From NCBI GenBank assembly GCA_964291215.2, contig OZ219791.1:1280001-1344000 (forward strand): DNA of 64,000 nt, in the 5' to 3' direction. Under the pieces are notes generated by a model. The model was given only the letters and a program-made list of their open reading frames with translations, did no database searches and had not been told where the DNA came from. Each line of letters opens with the position of its first letter. Position 1 is the stretch's first letter. The position numbers and the translations under genes were made by a program. This DNA is from Alphaproteobacteria bacterium. Its GTDB lineage: Bacteria; Pseudomonadota; Alphaproteobacteria; MPNO01; UBA830. Of the stretch, positions 3,099-47,087 are shown piece by piece.

Positions 3099-4670
3099 GA
3101 GCGCCAGGTTAACTGGTAGGATGTCGCCGGGTGAGAGTCCCGGCAGGAAGAGAGGCTAACCACCACTTCCTCCGTGAACCATGCGTCGTGAGGCGAAGCG
3201 TTGGGGAGCGGCAAGCCGGGCTATTGAGCCACGAGATACTGTGAAACCGGAGTGCCGAGGTCGTGGCCGAAGGCAACACCCTGCGAGCCGCGTTGGTGAG
3301 GGGGGCTTCGCGGGGTCTGAGAACCATGGCCGAAGCAGGGACCTGGGAGGTCTTGCCCCTCTGTCGTAGAGGGGTCGCAGAGGAAATTCCGTAAACCGAT
3401 GATGAACGAGAAGTCAGATTCGGCGTGCAGCGAGTCTAGCTGCTGTACTTGCGGGTGTGAGTCCCGCCGGCGCAATTTCCAGTTTGGCGCCGTAGCATTG
3501 GTTCAGGGGTGACCGTGGACCAGCGAGCTGGGATGTAGAAGCCGTTGTGGGCTGGCTGGAACGCAGTGTCCAGCCGGTTCGGTCAGCCAGGGCGGCGAGC
3601 AAACCGGAGGGCCGTAGCGAAAGCGAACGATTGGATGAAGCCCCGAAATTGATTTCCCACATGAAGCTGATTAGTGGGGTAAACGGGAATGCCAAGGGCC
3701 TGCCGATAGCCCGATGGCCAGAGTCGATGCGGAAGAACTGGAGAGCACGCATCGGGTTCCCCGGTGGTAGAGACGGCGGCAATCCGGGACAGTACAGCGG
3801 TGAAAGATCGGAAGGTGAGGAGGACAGACAGGATGAAGTGACCCTTGAATGTCAAGGACCGCGTCTATAACCAGGACTGGGAAAGGACGCGGAGTCCTCC
3901 TGACTGGCGGATGAGGTCGATTAAGCGTTGACGGGCGGGACAACACAACCCGTCCTGAGCGAGGACCTCAGGGCTCAGGTGGCCTGTGCCGCGGTAGGTC
4001 AACGCCAGTGCTCAGAAACTGGCACCGACCGACAAGACCGCGAGGTCGAAGGACGGAGCAAACGCTCGGAGATGCCGTGGGTACGGTTGGGTCAGCCTTG
4101 ACCATGGCGCGTCCGGCGGAAGGCTCCGCACCGAACTCCAAGTGGGTGCCTGATGCTTGAACCGGGAAAACCGGACGTACGGAATTTTAGGGGGGCTGCT
4201 GGAAACGTGGTCTATGGTAGTTCAGCGACCCCGCCCGCAATCGAAAGAGCGGTGACGGACAAAGCCTCTGCCTACGGATGCGCGCGCCAGCGGCCTACCC
4301 GACCGCAAACCATCCCGGAAACGCGCACCCTGCGGCGGATCAAGGAGGCGCTGCGCAAGCGGTGGCACGACAATCGGCACAAGACGGCCAAGTGGCGAGT
4401 GATCAAAGGCTGCTACTACGCCGTTCCGGGAAGCAGTGAGTCCCTGCAGGGGTTCATATACCAATGCAAACGGCTGCGTGCCCTTCGGCGGCGTTCCCAA
4501 AAGGATCGCACCGAATGGAGGGACATGGACACCCTCATCGAAGCTCACTGGCCTAAGGCCAGCATCCGTGGCCAAACCAGCGCCTTGTCGTCAGGGGAGG
4601 AGCCGGATGCGAACAGCGCAAGTCCGGATCTGTGCGGGGGGACCGGGGAAACCCGGTTCCCTACCGCGAT
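3099..4670 (+). mobile_element. Group II intron, outer (probably class E); RT domains lost, X/maturase remnant kept
   Basis: 5' GAGCGCCAGG (GTGCGCCAGG in the other copies); domain V GAGCCGGATGCG...GTCCGGATCTG at 4600; 3' CCCTACCGCGAT; homologous to 40039-44961. Confidence 0.85.
3425..4303 (+). mobile_element. ORF-less group II intron nested in the outer intron (class F-like long domain VI)
   Basis: Starts GTGCAGCG; domain V/VI-like CGTACGGAATTTTAGGGGGG...GCAATCGAAAGAGCGG; ends CCTACCCGAC; outer-intron homology resumes exactly at 4304. Confidence 0.75.
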
Positions 4671-38775: not shown

Positions 38776-40038
38776 ATGTCCTGTCCCCGTGTGGAAGGTT
38801 TGGGGCAGGATAGAACTCCGGAGCGTGGTCTTTCAACCTGACACTGTTAACTCGCACGGTGATCCCACGCCAAGTTTGTTGGAAGGGTCGGTTTCGCTTG
38901 TTCAGGATGATTCGCATTTTCGCTGACTTTTTGTGAAGCGGCGCAGTATCCGTTGTCGTGATGGAAGGGGCAGCGGATTTTTTTGAGACGACTCTGGAGG
39001 GTTTTGCGCTCCGGGATGTAGTTGTGCGCCTTGCGTGGCCTGATGTCGCTGGAATCGTGCGGTTGACGGTATCCTGGTTTCAAGCAGTTTGCCGGTCGAG
39101 GTCTGCGCTACGTGTTCACCTGGCGCGGGCAGTGGATTGGCGCTGCGGGCTGGCAGACGGGCGCCCTCGGCTGCGCACCGCGGGACCGTTGGATTGGCTG
39201 GCGCCGCGAGGAACAGTTCAGGCGGTTGCCGGGAACAACACGAGGTTTGTTGTTCTTGGTGGTCGCCGGGTGCTGCCGGGCCTTGCCTCGTTTGCGTTGT
39301 CGCGGATGGTGCGGTGGCGACCGGGAGGCTGCCGTTGCTTGTTGCGGAGTCGTTTGTCTCGCCGACGAAGTTCAGCGGCACCATGTACAAGGTGGCGAAC
39401 CGGGAGGGCGTTGGCAGGAGCTATGCGCGCGCCAACGGGCGCCGACCGGCACAGGGAGGCGAAGGATCTTTACGTGTTTCCGCTGCGTCGTGACGTCGGC
39501 TGCGGGACCGTTCGTCGCGGGTGCAGTTCTCGTATGGCGAATCCAATTCATTGATTTAACACGGTTGTGCGGTCGCGAGGCAGCGGCGAAAACGGGTTTT
39601 CGTGACAATCGCCCGTTTCGGGACAGGATTTTGTCACGACCCCCGCGGCATCGACAGGGTGATCCGGGCGCTGCGCCATCTTCGCGACACCGCGGCGCCA
39701 ACGGGCCGACATCGACAGGGAACCGGCCTTTTTCCGCAAGCATCGCCACCGCATGCGCTACCACGCGCTGAAGCAACCGGCTCGGGAATTGTCGAGGCGG
39801 CGTATCTACTCACCCCTAGTTGGGTTCTGATTCATAGTGCTCGTTGATGATGTCTGCGGCTTTTCCGTCGAGGGCGATCTGGGTGGCGACGAGTGGGTTG
39901 TAGCCGAGTGCGGCCATGGAGGTGAGGTAGCTTGAGCTCCGGCACCATGCTTTTGCGTGGAGCGGAAGCATCCGGACACCTTGACCTTTGCCATCCTGAT
40001 CTTCTGTTCTCCGGCATTGTTGGTGAAGCTGACATTGG

Positions 40039-41681
40039 GTGCGCCAGGCTAACTGGTGGAATGTTGCCGGGTGCAAGTCCCGGCAGGAAGAGAGGCTAAC
40101 CACCACTTTCTCCGTGAACCATGCGTCGTGAGGCGTCAGGCGAAGCGTTGGGGAACGGCAGGCCGGGCTATTGAGCCACGAGATGCTTTGAAACCGGAGT
40201 GCCGAGGTCGTGGCCGAAGGCAACGAGCCGCGTTGGTGAGGGGGGCTCCGCGGGGTCCGAGAACCATGGCCGAAGCAGGGACCTGGGAGGTCTTTCAATC
40301 GCCCCTCTGTCGTGGAGGGGCCGCAGAGGAAAGGAACTATTCCATAAACCGATGATGAACGAGAAGTCAGATCCGGCCATAGTACCGTTGAAGGCGGCGA
40401 ACAAGGGTTCTTCGGAGCCTGCGGAGTTGCTGGAGGGAAGGGCAATGCGGTTGGCCCGCGCCGCGCGCAGAAGCGGGGGTCACAGGCGGCTGAACGCAGG
40501 TAGCGAAGAGGAACCCGGAAGAGCGTCTTTACTCCACCACGTGACGGTCGACGCTCTGCACGATGCGTTCCATTCCTTGAGGAAGGACGCGGCGGCGGGG
40601 CGTTGTGTGGCAAGCGTATGCGGAGGGTGTGGAACTGCCTGCACGCCCGTGTGCACAGGGGCGGGCGCCTCCGGGGTTTACATACCCAAGGAGGATGGAG
40701 GGCAACGACCGCTTGCCTCGGACAAGATTCTTCAGCGGGCGGTGTGATTCTGGTGCCGCGAGACGGAGTTCCTCGGGTTTAGTTACGGTTTCCGGCCGGG
40801 GCGCATCACGCGCTCGACGCCGTCACGGTGGAACGGCGGAAGGTCAACTGGATCGTTGACGCCCGCGGGTTCTTCGACAATCTCGACCGCGACCACCTGA
40901 TTGCGATGCTCGGGAAACGGATCGGGGGGTTATCCGGCTGATCATCAAGTGGCTGAACGCCGGCGTCATGGAAGGGACCGACTGGTCGGATACGGGCAAG
41001 GGAACACCGCAGGGGGCGATTGTATCGCCCTGCCTCGCGAACGTTTACCTGCACTACGTGCGACTGGTTCCAGAACCACTGGCGCAAGCGGATGGCTGGA
41101 GGCGACACGATCATTATGCGGACGACTTCGTGTGCGGCTTTCAGCATCTGGGCGATGCGCAGCGCTTTCTCCGGGACCTTGGGGAGAGGCTGGCCCACTT
41201 GAACTGCACCCGGACAATCATCGAGTTCGGTCGGTTTGCCAGAGCGAACCGCCGGAAGCAGGGCAAGACATTCGACTTCCTCGGCATGACGCACTTCTGC
41301 GAACAGACGAGGAAAGGCAGGTTCAGGGTCGGTCGCAAACCGTCTCGCAAACGGGCACCCTGCGGCGGATCAAGGGGGCCTTGCGCATGCGATGGCACGA
41401 CAACCGGCACGAAACGGCCAAGTGGTGAGTCATCAACGGCTGCTACTACGCCGTCCCGGGAAGCAGTCAATCCCTGCAGGGGTTCATACACCAATGCAAA
41501 CGGCTGCGTGCCCTTCGGCGACGCTCCCAAAAGGACTTCACCGGGGACATAGACACCCTCGCCGCTGCCCACTGAGCCAGCATCCGCCACCCGTGGCCAA
41601 ACCAGCGCCTTGTCGTCAGGGGAGGAGCGAACAGCGCACGTCCGGTTCTGTGCGGGGGGTAACCCGGTTCCCTACCGCAAT
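40039..41681 (+). mobile_element. Group II intron tandem copy 1 (RT pseudogene)
   Basis: GTGCG...CCCTACCGCAAT; RT motifs LLHHV, YIPK.DG..RPL, GTPQGAIVSP.LANVYLHYV, YADD and FDFLG in broken frames. Confidence 0.93.
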
Positions 41682-43324
41682 GTGCGCCAGGCAAACTGGT
41701 GGAATGTTGCCGGGTGCAAGTCCCGAGAGAGGCTAACCACCACTTTCTCCGTGAACCATGCGTCGTGAGGCGTCAGGCGAAGCGTTGGGGAGCGGCAGGC
41801 TGGGCTATTGAGCCACGAGATGCTTTGAAACCGGAGTGCCGAGGTCGTCCAAGTGGGCAACACCCCGCGAGCCGCGTTGGTGAGGGGGGCTCCGCGGGGT
41901 CCGAGAACCATGGCCGAAGCAGGGACCTGGGAGGTCTTGCCCCTCTGTCGTGGAGGGGCCGCAGAGGAAAGGAACTATTCCATAAACCGATGATGAACGA
42001 GAAGTCAGATCCGGCCATAGTACCGTTGAAGGCGGCGAACAAGGGTTCTTCGGAGCCTGCGGAGTTGCTGGAGGGAAGGGCAATGCGGTTGGCCCGCGCC
42101 GCGCGCAGAAGCGGGGGTCACAGGCGGCTGAACGCAGGTAGCGAAGAGGAACCCGGAAGAGCGTCTTTACTCCACCACGTGACGGTCGACGCTCTGCACG
42201 ATGCGTTCCATTCCTTGAGGAAGGACGCGGCGGCGGGGCGTTGTGTGGCAAGCGTATGCGGAGGGTGTGGAACTGCCTGCACGCCCGTGTGCACAGGGGT
42301 GCGTACCGGGCGCCTCCAGGGTTTACATACCCAAGGAGGATGGAGGGCAACGACCGCTTGCCTCGGACAAGATTCTTCAGCGGGCAGTGTGATTCTGGTG
42401 CCGCTCTACGAAACGGAGTTCCTCGGGTTTAGTTACGGTTTCCGGCCGGGGCGCATCACGCGCTCGACGCCGTCACGGTGGAACGGCGGAAGGTCAACTG
42501 GATCGTTGACGCCCGCGGGTTCTTCGACAATCTCGACCGCGACCACCTGATTGCGATGCTCGGGAAACGGATCGGGGGGTCTGATCATCAAGTGGCTAAA
42601 CGCCGGCGTCATGGAAGGGACCGACTGGTCGGATACGGGCAAGGGAACACCGCAGGGGGCGATTGTATCGCCCTGCCTCGCGAACGTTTACCTGCACTAC
42701 GTGCGACTGGGTCCAGAACCACTGGCGCAAGCGGATGGCTGGAGGCGACACGATCATTATGCGGACGACTTCGTGTGCGGCTTTCAGCATCTGGGCGATG
42801 CGCAGCGCTTTCTCCGGGACCTTGGGGAGAGGCTGGCCCACTTGAACTGCACCCGGACAATCATCGAGTTCGGTCGGTTTGCCAGAGCGAACCGCCGGAA
42901 GCAGGGCAAGACGTTCGACTTCCTCGGCATGACGCACTTCTGCGAACAGACGAGGAAAGGCAGGTTCAGGGTCGGTCGCAAACCGTCTCGCAAACGGGCA
43001 CCCTGCGGCGGATCAAGGGGGCCTTGCGCATGCGATGGCACGACAACCGGCACGAAACGGCCAAGTGGTGAGTCATCAACGGCTGCTACTACGCCGTCCC
43101 GGGAAGCAGTCAATCCCTGCAGGGGTTCATACACCAATGCAAACGGCTGCGTGCCCTTCGGCGACGCTCCCAAAAGGACTTCACCGGGGACATAGACACC
43201 CTCGCCGCTGCCCACTGAGCCAGCATCCGCCACCCGTGGCCAAACCAGCGCCTTGTCGTCAGGGGAGGAGCGAACAGCGCACGTCCGGTTCTGTGCGGGG
43301 GGTAACCCGGTTCCCTACCGCAAT
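41682..43324 (+). mobile_element. Group II intron tandem copy 2
   Basis: Begins at the base after the 3' AAT of copy 1; 1643 bp. Confidence 0.93.
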
Positions 43325-44961
43325 GTGCGCCAGGCAAACTGGTGGAATGTTGCCGGGTGCAAGTCCCGAGAGAGGCTAACCACCACTTTCTCCGTGAACC
43401 ATGCGTCGTGAGGCGCCAGGCGAAGCGTTGGGGAGCGGCAGGCCAGGCTATTGAGCCACGAGATGCTTTGAAACCGGAGTGCCGAGGTCGTCCAAGTGGG
43501 CAACACCCCGCGAGCCGCGTTGGTGAGGGGGGCTCCGCGGGGTCCGAGAACCATGGCCGAAGCAGGGACCTGGGAGGTCTTGCCCCTCTGTCGTGGAGGG
43601 GCCGCAGAGGAAAGGAACTATTCCATAAACCGATGATGAACGAGAAGTCAGATCCGGCCATAGTACCGTTGAAGGCGGCGAACAAAGGTTCTCCGGAGCC
43701 TGCGGAGTTGCTGGAGGGAAGGGCAATGCGGTTGGCCCGCGCCGCGCGCAGAAGCGGGGGTCACAGGCGGCTGAACGCAGGTAGCGAAGAGGAACCCGGA
43801 AGAGCGTCTTTACTCCACCACGTGACGGTCGACGCTCTGCACGACGCGTTCCATTCCTTGAGGAAGGACGCGGCGGCGGGGCGTTGTGTGGCAAGCATAC
43901 GCGGAAGGGGTGGAACTGGTTGATCTACACGCCCGTGTGCACAGGGGTGCGTACCGGGCGCCTCCAGGGTTTACATTCCCAAGGAGGATGGAGGGCAACG
44001 ACCGCTTGCCTCGGACAAGATTCTTCAGCGGGCAGTGTGATTCTGGTGCCGCTCTACGAAACGGAGTTCCTCGGTTTCAGCTACGGTTTCCGGCCGGGAC
44101 GCATCATGCGCTCGACGCCGTCACGGTGGAACGGCGGAAGGTCAACTGGATCGTTGACGCCCGCGGGTTCTTTGACAATCTCGACCGCGACCACCTGATT
44201 GCGATGCTCGGGAAACGGATCGGGGGGTTATCCGGCTGATCATCAAGTGGCTGAACGCCGGCGTCATGGAAGGGACCGACTGGCAAGGGAACACCGCAGG
44301 GGGCGATTGTATCGCCCTGCCTCGCGAACGTTTACCTGCACTACGTGCGACTGGGTCCAGAACCACTGGCGCAAGCGGATGGCTGGAGGCGACACGATCA
44401 TTATGCGGACGACTTCGTGTGCGGCTTTCAGCATCTGAGCGACGCGCAGCGCTTTCTCCGGGACCTTGGGGAGAGGCTGGCCCACTTGAACTGCACCCGG
44501 ACAATCATCGAGTTCGGTCGGTTTGCCAGAGCGAACCGCCGGAAGCAGGGCAAGACGTTCGACTTCCTCGGCATGACGCACTTCTGCGAACAGACGAGGA
44601 AAGGCAGGTTCAGGGTCGGTCGCAAACCGTCTCGCAAACGGGCACCCTGCGGCGGATCAAGGGGGCCTTGCGCATGCGATGGCACGACAACCGGCACGAA
44701 ACGGCCAAGTGGTGAGTCATCAACGGCTGCTACTACGCCGTCCCGGGAAGCAGTCAATCCCTGCAGGGGTTCATACACCAATGCAAACGGCTGCGTGCCC
44801 TTCGGCGACGCTCCCAAAAGGACTTCACCGGGGACATAGACACCCTCACCGCTGCCCACTGAGCCAGCATCCGTGGCCAAACCAGCGCCTTGTCGTCAGG
44901 GGAGGAGCGAACAGCGCACGTCCGGTTCTGTGCGGGGGGTAACCCGGTTCCCTACCGCAAT
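43325..44961 (+). mobile_element. Group II intron tandem copy 3
   Basis: Same exact junction; 1637 bp; IS66 sequence resumes at 44962. Confidence 0.93.
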
Positions 44962-47087
44962 GGTCGTCTGTGAAGCGCAGGTTTTCGTGTTTCACGAGAC
45001 GTTCGTGCAGGTTGTGCGCGCCGGACTTGCGTCCACGTTTTCCTTTCGGCGGGATATCGGGCAGTTCCCTGGCGCCCTGATGGTGCGGTAGCGCTTGCGC
45101 CCGGCGTCGTTCAGGGTTTTGGATGCGCTCTTGTTGACCTTGTGGCAGGGAGCAGGCTCTTCATCAGTCGCGCGGTAGCCTCGACGACAAAGGTCAGTTC
45201 GCGCAGCAGGTGGCTGCCGCTGGTGGCTACACTGGCCCATGTACGAGGCCCAGGACGCCCTTGTAACACGGGATGATGCCGATCTCTTGCCCGCGCTTGC
45301 GGTGCGGGAACTTGCACGTCAGGGTCCCACGACATGGAGCCACTTACTGTTGATCCGAAATCGTCGACATCGGGCGTTGCAGGAGGTGCGCCACGGCGGC
45401 CTCCTCCCATGACGCATCGTGAAAGCATAGCCGAGGCCTCGGAGAGCTTGATATCGCCTGCACGAGCGCGACGGCGCAGGGACAGCATTTGGGCGACCAG
45501 CAGGTTGATGACGAGGGCCTGGATGCCGATGCCGTAATGCACGGGATGTTGTCGGGGAACCGGCCCCGGGCCTTGCACTTCGGACATTCCTTGATCTCGG
45601 CGCGGCGCTCGACGACCTCGAACACGATGTCGTGCGGCGCTCCCGATCGACGGGGCCGTCGATGTCGGCGCCGCAGGCCGCGACCGTTTCCTCGACGATG
45701 GTCTTGCGCAGGTTGTCGCCCATCTGCCGGTTCGGCTTCGGGCCGTTGCTCCCGGCACGCTCTCGTCCTTGTCCGTCTGTGACGGCGGCAGACCGGAGTT
45801 CCGGCTCGTGCGTAGTCTTCTCCAGAAGGACGACGATGATGATGTCGAGCAGGATGACGAGGACGCGGATCACGGCCTCTTTCGGCACCTTGCCGGCAGC
45901 GCCGCGGTCTTGGCCGCTTCGAACTCCTCGCGCGCCGCGTTGACCGTCGCCATCACCCGGTCTTGCGCTTCATCAGCGCGCCGCCTCCGAGATGCGTTTC
46001 CACATACAGATCATGCGGGGGCTGGAGCCTCGGAAGCAGCTGGCACAGCCCGCTCGTCGCCTTCGATCCAAAGTAGCCCACTGGCGGTCCCCTCGATTAC
46101 CACCACTAAACGAATCGGCCTGCAGTGTCAAATCTCCACGAAAACCCGTTCATTGCTCTACCCCGACATCAAGCCGGAACCAGGGGGTGAGCAGTTACGA
46201 GGCGGCAAATAAGACCCTCGTCACACAGCGCATGAAACGCTCTGGCATGCGCTGGCGCATCGTCGGCGGACAATCACCTTCCGCGCCCTGCTCGAAGCCA
46301 GCCGCTTCGAGAGCGCGTGGACGGCCATGATCGGTGCAGACGACGCACCAGCCAACGACAACATCAGCCCAAATCACACCCCGGCACTGGCCGTACGAGA
46401 TGAACAAATGGTACTGAGCCTGCAACTGTGCCATACGAAACTCTCACCCTTCGCCGCTTCCTGTGGCGTGGGAGTTGCGGGCGCCGCTGGTCGCGCAGGA
46501 GTTGTGCTCGATTTATCAGCGGCGCTTTCCGGCGCGCGCAGGGGCATCGCCTCGGTACTGTGCGTGATGGCGCGGCTTGCGAACCGGCGCGGCGGCGCAC
46601 TACGACGCAGAAGGAGCTGGAGCAGCATGGAAGAACAGGGACAAGCCGGTCTCGACCGTGCACCGGGTGCTGCAGAACACCGACCCGGGATGGATCGAGG
46701 ATGCGGCGCGCAGCCGCAGGTCGGCAACGCGGTCGACGGCAAGCGCACCGGCGAGGATCATTACGAGACAGTCTCGCTGGCCGGTATTCGATCCTCAACT
46801 ATCACGACGGGGAGATCGCTGCCGTCCACGCCGCGACGGCGCTGGCCGTCTGCTCACCCTCGACGCGCTCCACACCACCCGCGAGGCTGATCATCGAGAC
46901 CCATCGCGCGGACTGATGGTCAAGGGCAACGCACCTTCGAGAGAGCATCAACTGGAAGACCGCCAGCGCTACAACGAAAAGCCCGCGCATGGCCGCCAGC
47001 GCATCATCTTCACCCCGCTGGCGAAGATGATCAACTATGTCAAGCAGATCTTCCGCGTCACCCGGCACGTCGAATTCAGGAAATCCG

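What the first reader, a model, noticed from the sequence alone, without database searches (positions are those of the whole stretch)
40039..44961. Three group II introns joined head-to-tail at exact splice boundaries
Seen: both internal junctions are CCCTACCGCAAT|GTGCGCCAGG with no exon bases. Removing all three restores the IS66 frame LRFTDD/PNVSFTNN on the opposite strand. Copies carry private SNPs and indels. Established: this junction is what an intron circle gives. Inference: the array arose by repeated homing at the regenerated 5' exon site (the +1 base is G both before and after insertion), by rolling-circle reverse transcription, or by recombination with a DNA circle. All three share a domain V deletion that should abolish splicing, so amplification or homogenisation followed inactivation.
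Basis: partly seen in the sequence, partly recalled or inferred. Interest (0 to 1): 0.78.

Follow-up and report, generated by a model that had tools for sequence, protein, structure and literature searches.

The report
Stacked dead group II introns
Three broken copies of a self-splicing mobile intron sit nose to tail inside one copy of a jumping gene, most likely because each newcomer landed again at the same entry point, which stays recognisable after it is filled; this is a natural fossil of a behaviour already seen in laboratory assays.

Summary
Window 40039-41681, 41682-43324 and 43325-44961 are three copies (1643, 1643 and 1637 nt) of one group II intron. They are joined exactly ...CCGCAAT|GTGCGCC... 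and lie antisense in an IS66-family transposase gene.

The array is not unique. The genome holds 8 such exact joints at 6 loci, 44 occupied IS66 sites and 142 empty ones.

Occupancy follows replication direction: 38 of 44 occupied sites, against 49 of 142 empty ones, have the target on the predicted lagging-strand template. The intact relative's protein has no endonuclease domain.

I located EBS1 and EBS3 by covariation. At an occupied site the 5' exon is unchanged and intron G1 pairs with EBS3 C, as at an empty site. Copies per permissive site fit a Poisson distribution.

Members of three other arrays are not sister copies. In this array the 3'-most copy carries 22 private substitutions against 1.

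Repeated retrohoming at the 5' exon/intron joint is therefore the best reading. It has already been shown in the laboratory for RmInt2 and EcKTE56.groEL, and this scan has noted natural tandem introns in other genomes.

All copies are dead. The shared domain V deletion belongs to a genus-wide, unexplained 5-7-nt deletion signature, so it does not date the amplification.

The parts
39802..40038 (-). Right part of the host IS66-family element: terminal inverted repeat (39802-39816) and the frameshifted C-terminal part of the transposase gene. For the intron on the + strand this is the 5' exon, ending ...GCTGACATTGG (IBS1 = TTGG).
   Evidence: Inverted-repeat motif found. Translation NVSFTNNAGEQKIRMAKVKVSGCFRS. 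Identical target sequence lies inside PF03050 matches at empty sites.
40039..41681 (+). Intron copy 1 (1643 nt), next to the 5' exon and predicted to be the youngest. GTGCG...CCGCAAT. The EBS1 loop is deleted (40206-40220 reads GGTCGTGGCCGAAGG). EBS3 C is at 40258. The reverse-transcriptase reading frame is broken (YADD at 41113-41126). Domain V remnant at 41624-41648; domain VI at 41649-41681.
41681..41682 (+). Joint 1|2: intron 3' end T41681 abuts intron G1 at 41682, with no exon bases.
   Evidence: Unitigs from 3 runs cross it.
41682..43324 (+). Intron copy 2 (1643 nt). EBS1 CCAAGT at 41849-41854. EBS3 C at 41902. Domain V remnant at 43267-43291. It is 100% identical over 1621 aligned columns to a solo copy at G000:C2:171714-173375.
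43324..43325 (+). Joint 2|3, with the same sequence as joint 1|2.
43325..44961 (+). Intron copy 3 (1637 nt), next to the 3' exon and predicted to be the oldest. It has 22 private substitutions against 1 in copy 2. EBS1 CCAAGT at 43492-43497. EBS3 C at 43545. Domain V remnant at 44904-44928.
44962..46198 (-). Left part of the IS66-family element: frameshifted transposase gene ending ...HENLRFTDD at the insertion point, and the terminal inverted repeat at 46184-46198. For the intron this is the 3' exon, beginning GGTCGTCTGTG (IBS3 = G44962).

Best explanation
Three degenerate copies of one group II intron lie head to tail at a single target site in an IS66-family transposase gene, and they were most likely stacked one after another by retrohoming into the joint between the 5' exon and the resident intron. 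The steps are as follows.

1. Shown: the intron RNA recognises its DNA target by base pairing. EBS1 pairs with the last 4-6 nt of the 5' exon, and EBS3 pairs with the first base of the 3' exon.

2. Shown: after one insertion the 5' exon is untouched, and the base after the insertion point is again G (intron G1). This G pairs with EBS3 = C exactly as the original G of the 3' exon did.

3. Inferred: a later ribonucleoprotein therefore reverse-splices again at the same phosphodiester bond and pushes the older copy downstream. The 5'-most copy would then be the youngest.

4. Inferred from orientation bias and from the lack of an endonuclease domain in the intact relative's protein: insertion happened at replication forks into the lagging-strand template.

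5. Shown: every copy is now dead. Reading frames are broken, and in the three copies here domain V is broken too.

6. Inferred: the decay came after insertion, through a lineage-wide 5-7-nt deletion process whose products are shared among copies by recurrence or gene conversion.
For: Exact joints: 8 head-to-tail joints at 6 loci, all CCGCRAT|GTGYGCC.

Target logic:
- The EBS1 hairpin loop covaries with the 5' exon in three lineages. G029 has CAGAUC against GATCTG. The GAGCG subfamily has CCACCA against ...GGTGG at 5 loci. The main family has CCAAGU or CCGAGU against ..TTGG or ..TCGG.
- The EBS3 position GGGGUC[N]GAGAACC covaries with +1 of the 3' exon: C:G 47, U:A 7, A:T 2, with 1 exception (C:A). 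One U:G pair was seen in a copy beyond the distance limit of that tally. G029 adds another A:T.
- The intron 3' end ...CCGCAAT has no match to IBS1, so re-entry must be on the 5' exon side.

Replication-linked retrohoming: the target lies on the GC-skew-predicted lagging-strand template at 38 of 44 occupied sites against 49 of 142 empty sites (odds ratio 12, p 8.8e-10). All IS66 sites together split 87:99. All 8 joints are in the permissive orientation. The intact relative's protein has RVT_1 and GIIM and no HNH domain.

No immunity of occupied sites: copies per permissive site are 49/33/4/2 for 0/1/2/3 copies, against a Poisson expectation of 51.6/27.6/7.4/1.5 (chi-square p 0.23).

Independent origin of array members: one-clade trees are rejected for arrays T2, D4 and D5. 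Copy 2 here is nearer to three copies at other loci (path 0.0021-0.0035) than to its neighbours (0.010 and 0.017).

Polarity: in 7 of 7 adjacent pairs the downstream copy has at least as many substitutions away from the root-like copy as the upstream one. Three pairs are individually significant. Here the counts are 1 against 22.

[quoted passage not shown] EcKTE56.groEL gave tandem integrations in 4.2% (wild type) and 22.4% (ORF-deleted) of positive colonies. Both were explained by EBS3 pairing with G1 of the first copy (PMC4615759 and PMC12584367, passages read).
Against: - For this array itself the AU test does not reject a single clade (p 0.139). The same holds for array D3 (p 0.07).
- Near-identical copies at four loci share about 28 deletions, several in the ribozyme core. 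Such RNAs could hardly have reverse-spliced. My reading therefore needs gene conversion or recurrent deletion after insertion, and neither is shown.
- If conversion is rampant, non-sisterhood of array members is weaker evidence than it looks.
- In T2 and D4 the downstream excess of substitutions is mostly made of clade-defining changes, not private ones. It is not a clean clock.
- Copy length against terminal branch length is not significant (Spearman -0.17, p 0.25).
- EBS1-IBS1 in the main family is only 4 bp, and I could not identify EBS2.
- Replichores are inferred from GC skew only.
- No intact donor remains: across 80 reverse-transcriptase loci the longest open frame is 448 aa, against 495 aa in the intact relative.
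Confidence: 0.7

Rival explanations
1. In-situ amplification from a single insertion. This could be reverse transcription round an intron RNA circle, end-to-end template switching by the reverse transcriptase, integration of a multimeric cDNA or DNA circle, or unequal crossing-over once a dimer existed.
For: The joint is what a circle junction would give. Intron RNA circles with head-to-tail junctions are documented for Ll.LtrB (PMC4478347, search listing and abstract start only). For this array the AU test does not reject one clade (p 0.139). Copies 2 and 3 are sisters at 88% SH-aLRT.
Against: - Simultaneous birth predicts equal divergence, but copy 3 has 22 private substitutions against 1 in copy 2 (p 5.7e-6), and 28 against 6 compared with copy 1.
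- Copy 2 is identical over 1621 columns to a solo copy elsewhere.
- The middle copy is not a chimera of copy 3 and copy 1 over the informative columns up to 1256.
- Arrays T2, D4 and D5 reject one clade.
- The Poisson fit and the orientation bias need no extra mechanism.
Confidence: 0.15
2. DNA-level spread. One ancient joint was copied to other IS66::intron loci by homologous recombination or gene conversion, and arrays then grew and shrank by unequal exchange. The three copies here would not be three retrohoming events.
For: About 50 copies 97-99% alike offer ample homology. Deletion states are mosaic: 51 of 54 sites need 3 or more changes on the tree. Indel haplotypes private within the array recur 2-29 times elsewhere.
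Against: - At least three joint haplotypes exist: A|GTGCG, G|GTGCG and G|GTGTG.
- All 8 joints sit in the permissive orientation.
- The count distribution fits independent hits.
- The consistent 5'-to-3' polarity (7 of 7 pairs) is not predicted by this model.
Confidence: 0.1
3. Assembly artefact: the repeat was expanded by the assembler and fewer copies exist.
For: No read spans the array. Only short unitigs were available.
Against: The three copies differ at about 40 positions and about 9 indels. Copy 3 has a unique 41-mer. Joint-crossing unitigs occur in three runs at about 5-15% of the intron-body depth, in line with 8 joints among 51 intact intron 3' ends in the assembly (43 exon junctions plus 8 joints).
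Confidence: 0.03

Closest known systems
Head-to-tail insertion of RmInt2 (class D, Sinorhizobium meliloti) in a plasmid mobility assay (PMC4615759; passages read)
   Same: The intron has no endonuclease domain. It prefers the lagging-strand template. A second copy enters an occupied site and gives an exact head-to-tail joint. The explanation is EBS3 pairing with intron G1.
   Different: In RmInt2, EBS3 is U, so pairing with G1 is a wobble. Here EBS3 is C, and G1 restores the same Watson-Crick pair as the empty site. That case is one laboratory product. Here there are eight fossil joints at six chromosomal loci, including two trimers. I did not test membership of class D.
Tandem integration of the IIB1 intron EcKTE56.groEL in E. 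coli (PMC12584367; passages read)
   Same: The second copy inserts precisely between the 5' exon and the first copy. The frequency is a few percent to about 20% of integrations, comparable to 6 of 39 occupied permissive sites here.
   Different: It belongs to a different lineage and has a different target (the groEL stop codon). It was over-expressed from a plasmid, and only dimers were reported in the passages I read.
Sr.md.I1 / RmInt1 family in insertion-sequence transposase genes (PMC4615759; passages read)
   Same: Sr.md.I1 sits in an ORF annotated as IS66 transposase. EBS3-IBS3 is a G-C pair. Retrohoming is biased to the lagging-strand template.
   Different: The protein here (495 aa in the intact relative) and the RNA were not compared with RmInt1. 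Here the intron is antisense to the transposase gene, so splicing cannot rescue the IS. There are 44 occupied sites out of 186.
Group II intron circles (Ll.LtrB; PMC4478347, listing and abstract only) and Podospora alpha-senDNA multimers (recalled; not found in the library)
   Same: They give the same head-to-tail junction sequence.
   Different: They are RNA circles or extrachromosomal DNA multimers whose units are copies of one molecule. Here the units are chromosomal and of unequal divergence.
Twintrons (intron within intron)
   Same: The same families also invade each other. G029 has an intact relative inserted just after domain V of another intron. G000:C1:1651029-1655922 has a nested pair.
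   Different: Nesting interrupts the outer intron. In the array no copy is interrupted by another.

Membership tests
Group II intron (bacterial, mobile) | 5' GUGYG and 3' AY boundaries | tested here: met
   Each copy starts GTGCG and ends ...CCGCAAT.
Group II intron (bacterial, mobile) | Domain I-IV ribozyme fold | tested here: met
   RF02005 scores 91.5, 82.1 and 81.6 bits against a gathering score of 49, full model length, in all three copies.
Group II intron (bacterial, mobile) | Catalytic domain V hairpin and domain VI with a bulged A | tested here: not met
   RF00029 scores 14.5 bits against a gathering score of 40 on copy 1's 3' end, which is identical in the other two copies. No hit at gathering score in any of the three. 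A 7-nt deletion in domain V and another in domain VI. The feature is met in the longest genomic copy (43.4 bits; fold z -5.5). The three copies are therefore degenerate members.
Group II intron (bacterial, mobile) | Intact reverse transcriptase/maturase ORF in domain IV | tested here: not met
   RVT_1 is found in a 386-aa fragment of the longest copy. The intact relative has RVT_1 and GIIM. No own locus of 80 has an open frame longer than 448 aa, against 495 aa in the intact relative.
Group II intron (bacterial, mobile) | EBS1-IBS1 and EBS3-IBS3 pairing with the flanking exons | tested here: met
   Shown by covariation across three lineages. EBS2 was not identified.
Endonuclease-less introns that retrohome at replication forks (behaviour of RmInt1 / class D) | The intron-encoded protein lacks the endonuclease domain | tested here: met
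   Pfam finds RVT_1 and GIIM only in the intact G029 relative. The own copies are too broken to test.
Endonuclease-less introns that retrohome at replication forks (behaviour of RmInt1 / class D) | Insertion bias to the lagging-strand template | tested here: met
   38 of 44 occupied against 49 of 142 empty sites, odds ratio 12, p 8.8e-10. Replichores were inferred from GC skew.
Endonuclease-less introns that retrohome at replication forks (behaviour of RmInt1 / class D) | Phylogenetic placement of the protein and RNA in class D | not tested
   No reference class D sequence was compared.
Tandem integration by re-homing (RmInt2, EcKTE56.groEL) | Exact joint of intron 3' end to intron G1, with intact exon junctions on the outside | tested here: met
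Tandem integration by re-homing (RmInt2, EcKTE56.groEL) | EBS3 can pair with intron G1 | tested here: met
   EBS3 is C in all three copies (40258, 41902, 43545).
Tandem integration by re-homing (RmInt2, EcKTE56.groEL) | Copies arise from separate insertion events | tested here: inconclusive
   For this array the AU test gives p 0.139 (one clade not rejected), but the relative-rate test gives 1 against 22 (p 5.7e-6). The feature is met for arrays T2, D4 and D5.
Tandem integration by re-homing (RmInt2, EcKTE56.groEL) | Observed second integration into an occupied site | not testable with these tools
   This needs a mobility assay.
IS66 family (host element) | DDE_Tnp_IS66 transposase and terminal inverted repeats | tested here: met
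   PF03050 matches overlie empty copies of the same target, for example G000:C2:1789161-1789544. Inverted repeats at 39802-39816 and 46184-46198. The two short pieces flanking the array gave no Pfam hit on their own.

The most novel reading that the evidence does not exclude
The arrays are stratified fossils in a lineage where dead mobile DNA is eroded by a ruler-like deletion process. This process cuts about 6 nt at a time with no motif and acts far more strongly on high-copy families. It could be a repeat-directed genome defence, a bacterial counterpart of fungal RIP. Alternatively it could be a size-selective, deletion-biased gene conversion that drives each small deletion through a whole repeat family.
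Probability: 0.12. Interest if true: 0.8.

Novelty: new member of a known kind. Interest (0 to 1): 0.4.

Why it matters
Laboratory assays showed that a group II intron can re-enter an occupied homing site. This genome shows what that does over evolutionary time, at the scale of a population of targets.

There are 186 copies of one target. 44% of those in the permissive orientation are filled (38 of 87), against 6% of the others (6 of 99). Stacking occurs at about the rate expected if an occupied site is as good a target as an empty one. This follows from EBS3 = C, because intron G1 restores the native pair.

It is also a clear case of one mobile element disabling another. The intron lies antisense in the catalytic region of the transposase gene, so splicing cannot rescue the IS.

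None of this overturns current understanding of group II introns. The by-product may deserve more attention than the arrays: a 5-7-nt deletion signature shared by two genomes of the genus.

Tried and rejected
- Tandem Repeats Finder reported nothing because its longest period is 500.
- Size slip, corrected.
- Pfam on the two short IS66 pieces beside the array gave no hit. I confirmed IS66 identity through empty copies instead.
- Sponge and marine metagenome runs held 0.06 of the sampled words. The sponge run X2, when laid, gave 0 records. No habitat claim can be made.
- No contig had 31 nt on both sides of the joint, and no long reads were available.
- I could not find EBS2 by complementarity with the 5' exon. 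Candidates did not hold across lineages.
- Copy length against terminal branch length as an age proxy was not significant (rho -0.17, p 0.25).
- Causes of the deletions:
  - The position-weight matrix at deletion borders is flat.
  - Microhomology is mostly 0-2 nt.
  - There is no excess of flanking inverted repeats.
  - Similarity to the adjacent block of the same length is modestly raised (4 or more matches in 35% of events against 10% of controls), but this may partly reflect gap placement.
- The single-copy comparison with G001 (about 5.9 kb at 92-93% identity) shows no 5-7-nt gap, but this is coding DNA and uninformative.
- G002 lacks this IS66 element and this intron.
- Literature searches for the deletion signature and for Podospora senDNA found no papers. 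The scan's own notes on such deletions gave no relevant finding, and there are no notes on this genome.
- I rejected a long-read assembly artefact as the source of the deletions. Both forms occur in short-read unitigs of three runs. The intact outgroup has the deleted segment at 62 of 66 sites. A second genome of the genus shows the same peak.


Full report
**What is in the window.** The repeat finder shows three direct copies spaced 1638-1650 nt apart. The raw sequence gives units of 1643, 1643 and 1637 nt at 40039-41681, 41682-43324 and 43325-44961. Each starts GTGCGCC and ends CCCTACCGCAAT. Both internal joints read CCCTACCGCAAT|GTGCGCCAGGCA, with no base between them. The unit boundary can slide by a single G only. 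The copies align at 98% mean column identity and differ by substitutions and by indels of 5-11 nt. Rfam places a full-length group-II-D1D4-6 match in each copy (91.5, 82.1 and 81.6 bits against a gathering score of 49).

On the minus strand the flanks translate to ...HENLRFTDD and NVSFTNNAGEQKIRMAKVKVSGCFRS, with one Pro codon split by the insertion. The host element is bounded by inverted repeats at 39802-39816 and 46184-46198. The same uninterrupted target occurs 142 times in the genome. Copies I checked lie inside Pfam DDE_Tnp_IS66 matches.

**State of the copies.** All three lack 7 nt (GCCGGAT) of the 5' strand of domain V, and 7 nt of domain VI, that the longest genomic copy keeps.
- RF00029 scores 14.5 bits on copy 1's 3' end, against 43.4 bits in the longest copy (gathering score 40).
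- The longest copy's 3' 80 nt fold into the expected domain V and domain VI hairpins (-48.2 kcal/mol, z -5.5). Copy 1's last 66 nt, identical in the other two copies, fold no better than shuffles (z -0.55).
- The reverse-transcriptase frame is broken in every copy. Across 80 reverse-transcriptase loci found with the intact relative's protein, the longest stop-free frame is 448 aa against 495 aa.

No live donor remains in this genome.

**The array is one of six.** Blastn of the longest copy (G000:C2:3402931-3404765, 1835 nt) against the laid genome gave 112 HSPs. Pattern searches then found the following:

| Feature | Count |
|---|---|
| 5' exon|intron junctions | 44 |
| intron|3' exon junctions | 43 |
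| empty sites | 142 |
| exact head-to-tail joints | 8, at six loci |

The six loci are:
- this trimer (T1);
- a second trimer, T2, at C2:151337-157105;
- dimers at C2:123815-128779 (D3), C2:734579-739273 (D4) and C2:1515003-1517963 (D5);
- a truncated copy followed by a full copy at C2:2501350-2503043 (D6).

Some members are themselves split by later IS insertions.

**Read support.** Three runs of one coded organism and one study hold 0.50-0.60 of the region's sampled words. Their short contigs cover the region at depths of hundreds to thousands. In all three runs, unitigs cross the joint. Examples are X3 41656-41707 at depths 146 and 116, X4 41663-41710 at 496, and X5 41661-41707 at 477. None has 31 nt on both sides, which is the limit of such contigs. 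One of the runs may be the source of the assembly. The copy number of three is therefore not independently verified.

**How the intron finds its target.** An intact relative (69% identity, 1919 nt, 495-aa ORF with RVT_1 and GIIM and no HNH domain) sits in genome G029 just after domain V of another intron. Its 5' exon ends GATCTG, and a hairpin loop in its domain I reads CAGAUC.
- The homologous loop reads CCACCA in a diverged subfamily (5' end GAGCG) whose five ectopic sites end ...GGTGG.
- It reads CCAAGU or CCGAGU in the main family, whose IS66 sites end ..TTGG or ..TCGG. This loop is EBS1.

A single position, GGGGUC[N]GAGAACC, covaries with the first base of the 3' exon: C with G 47 times, U with A 7 times, A with T twice, and one exception (C with A). 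One U with G was seen in a copy beyond the distance limit of that tally. G029 adds another A with T. This position is EBS3. The 47 C:G cases are all the same IS66 site, so the independent evidence is the three-state correspondence.

In the three copies here EBS3 is C (40258, 41902, 43545). At an occupied site the 5' exon is unchanged and +1 is intron G1, so every identified RNA-DNA pair is preserved. The intron 3' end (CCGCAAT) offers no IBS1. A newcomer can therefore enter only between the 5' exon and the resident copy.

**Evidence that the sites were filled by retrohoming.** Cumulative GC skew suggests that the two contigs form one circle, with the origin near C2:0.6 Mb and the terminus near C1:0.19 Mb. 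With replichores so defined, the target lies on the lagging-strand template at 38 of 44 occupied sites and at 49 of 142 empty sites (Fisher odds ratio 12, p 8.8e-10). All IS66 copies together show no bias (87 against 99). All 8 joints are in the permissive orientation. This is the bias known for endonuclease-less introns of the RmInt1 group (PMC4615759, passages read). It argues that most copies entered resident IS66 copies one by one and were not carried about by IS66 transposition.

Among 88 permissive sites the numbers with 0, 1, 2 and 3 copies are 49, 33, 4 and 2. A Poisson distribution with the same mean expects 51.6, 27.6, 7.4 and 1.5 (p 0.23). Occupied sites were therefore hit about as often as empty ones. 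This simple model assumes that all sites were present and equal throughout.

**Are array members separate events?** I analysed 52 full-length copies: 49 contiguous and 3 re-joined across IS insertions.
- On their tree, members of one array are mostly not sisters.
- AU tests reject one clade for T2 (p 1e-33), D4 (3e-47) and D5 (0.035). They do not reject it for D3 (0.07) or for the array in question (0.139).
- Within this array copy 2 is identical over 1621 columns to a solo copy at C2:171714, and is nearer to three copies elsewhere than to its neighbours.
- A relative-rate count against the root-like longest copy gives 1 substitution unique to copy 2 and 22 unique to copy 3 (p 5.7e-6), 6 against 28 for copy 1 against copy 3, and 7 against 8 for copies 1 and 2.

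Simultaneous birth of the three units, as from a rolling circle or a multimer, does not fit. The most diverged unit is the 3'-most one, as insertion at the 5' joint predicts.

Over all arrays, the downstream member has at least as many changes as the upstream one in 7 of 7 adjacent pairs, and three pairs are individually significant. In T2 and D4, however, the excess is made of clade-defining changes, so it is not a clean clock.

[quoted passage not shown] It also reported that Sr.md.I1 lies in an IS66 transposase ORF (PMC4615759; passages read). A 2025 study of EcKTE56.groEL found tandem integration in 4.2% (wild type) and 22.4% (ORF-deleted) of positive colonies, with the same explanation (PMC12584367; passages read). 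This scan has also noted natural tandem group II introns in other genomes. I did not check those notes.

The mechanism is therefore known. What this genome adds is scale, trimers, and a native C-G EBS3 pair that makes the occupied site equivalent to the empty one. Intron RNA circles exist (PMC4478347, listing and abstract only). Podospora senDNA is recalled from memory and was not found in the library.

**The shared domain V deletion and the odd decay.** The copies differ little by substitution (terminal branches 0-0.02) but by about 100 gap events. Their lengths are 5 nt (11 events), 6 nt (30) or 7 nt (23), or doubles of these. Only 8 events are 1-3 nt long.
- The intact outgroup has the segment at 62 of 66 such sites, so these are deletions.
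- The same spectrum is seen in the IS66 flanks and in all repeat families of C1:1-1.3 Mb. There 27% of the DNA is repeated, and distinct extra segments number 545, 876, 1442, 673 and 145 for lengths 4 to 8, with echoes at 12 and 18.
- Borders show no base preference, little microhomology and no flanking hairpins.
- The ratio of 5-7-nt gaps to mismatches rises from 0.02 in families with 1-3 hits to 0.22 in families with more than 60 hits.
- A second, independently assembled genome of the genus shows the same peak in a different IS66 family (5 nt: 933; 6 nt: 1259; against 4 nt: 191 and 8 nt: 4).
- Both forms of several sites occur in short-read unitigs.

On the substitution tree the deletion states are highly homoplastic. 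Of 54 informative sites, 51 need 3 or more changes, the median is 5, and the domain V deletion needs 8. Many tree branches are unresolved, which inflates these counts. The indels that look private within the array recur 2-29 times elsewhere.

Sharing the domain V deletion therefore says nothing about whether the copies were already dead when stacked. My inference is that copies entered alive, then decayed, and that deletions spread among copies by gene conversion or recur at the same places. I could not tell which, and I have no mechanism for the 6-nt ruler. This is the weakest part of the account. Four near-identical copies at four loci share about 28 deletions, which needs one of these processes.

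**Verdict.** The timing inference drawn from the domain V deletion is unsafe. The array is a new natural member of a known kind. The deletion signature noticed on the way is the more unusual feature and remains unexplained.

Noticed in passing
Whole genome G000. In the window, for example, the indels among 40039-44961. Also G002 loci L028-L056.: Dead repeats (introns, IS66 and other IS families) differ mainly by deletions of 5-7 nt (mode 6, echoes at 12 and 18). There is no border motif, little microhomology and a mosaic distribution among copies. The ratio of deletions to mismatches rises ten-fold with family copy number. A second genome of the genus shows the same peak. The cause is unknown.
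   Followed up: partly
G000:C2:151337-157105 (L002), 123815-128779 (L005), 734579-739273 (L003), 1515003-1517963 (L004), 2501350-2503043 (L006): Five further head-to-tail arrays of the same intron at the same IS66 site: one trimer and four dimers. Several members are split by later IS insertions.
   Followed up: yes
window 3101-3424 and 4304-4670: A copy of a diverged intron subfamily (5' end GAGCG, EBS1 CCACCA, EBS3 U) at a non-IS66 site ending ...GGTGG|A. It is split by an insert of about 880 bp and has lost its middle. At least four other members sit at different ...GGTGG|A sites, so this subfamily retrotransposed to ectopic sites.
   Followed up: partly
G000:C1:1651029-1655922; G029 locus L008 about 3150-3160: Intron-in-intron nesting. 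In G000 a copy is inserted at ...GAGTTGCTGG|A inside another copy. In G029 an intact intron is inserted directly after domain V of a related intron, at CGTCCGGATCTG|TGCGGGG.
   Followed up: partly
for example window 3424|3425; G000:C2:153675, 128652, 97375, 1641437; C1:702303, 1656759: One other mobile element (end reading ...CAGCGAGTCTAGCTGCTGAT) has inserted at the same two intron positions, after ...GGCGTG at about nt 135 and nt 384, in at least ten intron copies. This suggests a site-specific IS that targets the intron.
   Followed up: no
G000:C1:204615-206595, 1652658-1654647; C2:1607960-1609945; G001 locus L015 at about 216: Another IS (end ...AACGCAAAAGGTAACTT) interrupts the intron at the same position, about nt 1151, in three copies here and in the related genome G001.
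   Followed up: no
G000 contigs C1 and C2: Cumulative GC skew fits one 6.15-Mb circle split into two contigs, with the origin near C2:0.6 Mb and the terminus near C1:0.19 Mb.
   Followed up: partly
G000 genome-wide; window 8052 holds one empty site: The target IS66-like family has 186 sites (142 empty, 44 occupied). Among the 142 empty copies examined, the open frame across the site is mostly 100-200 aa. Other IS66-family elements in the same genome are intact, for example a 556-aa frame at C1:2102834-2103703 and about a dozen copies with 463-aa frames.
   Followed up: partly
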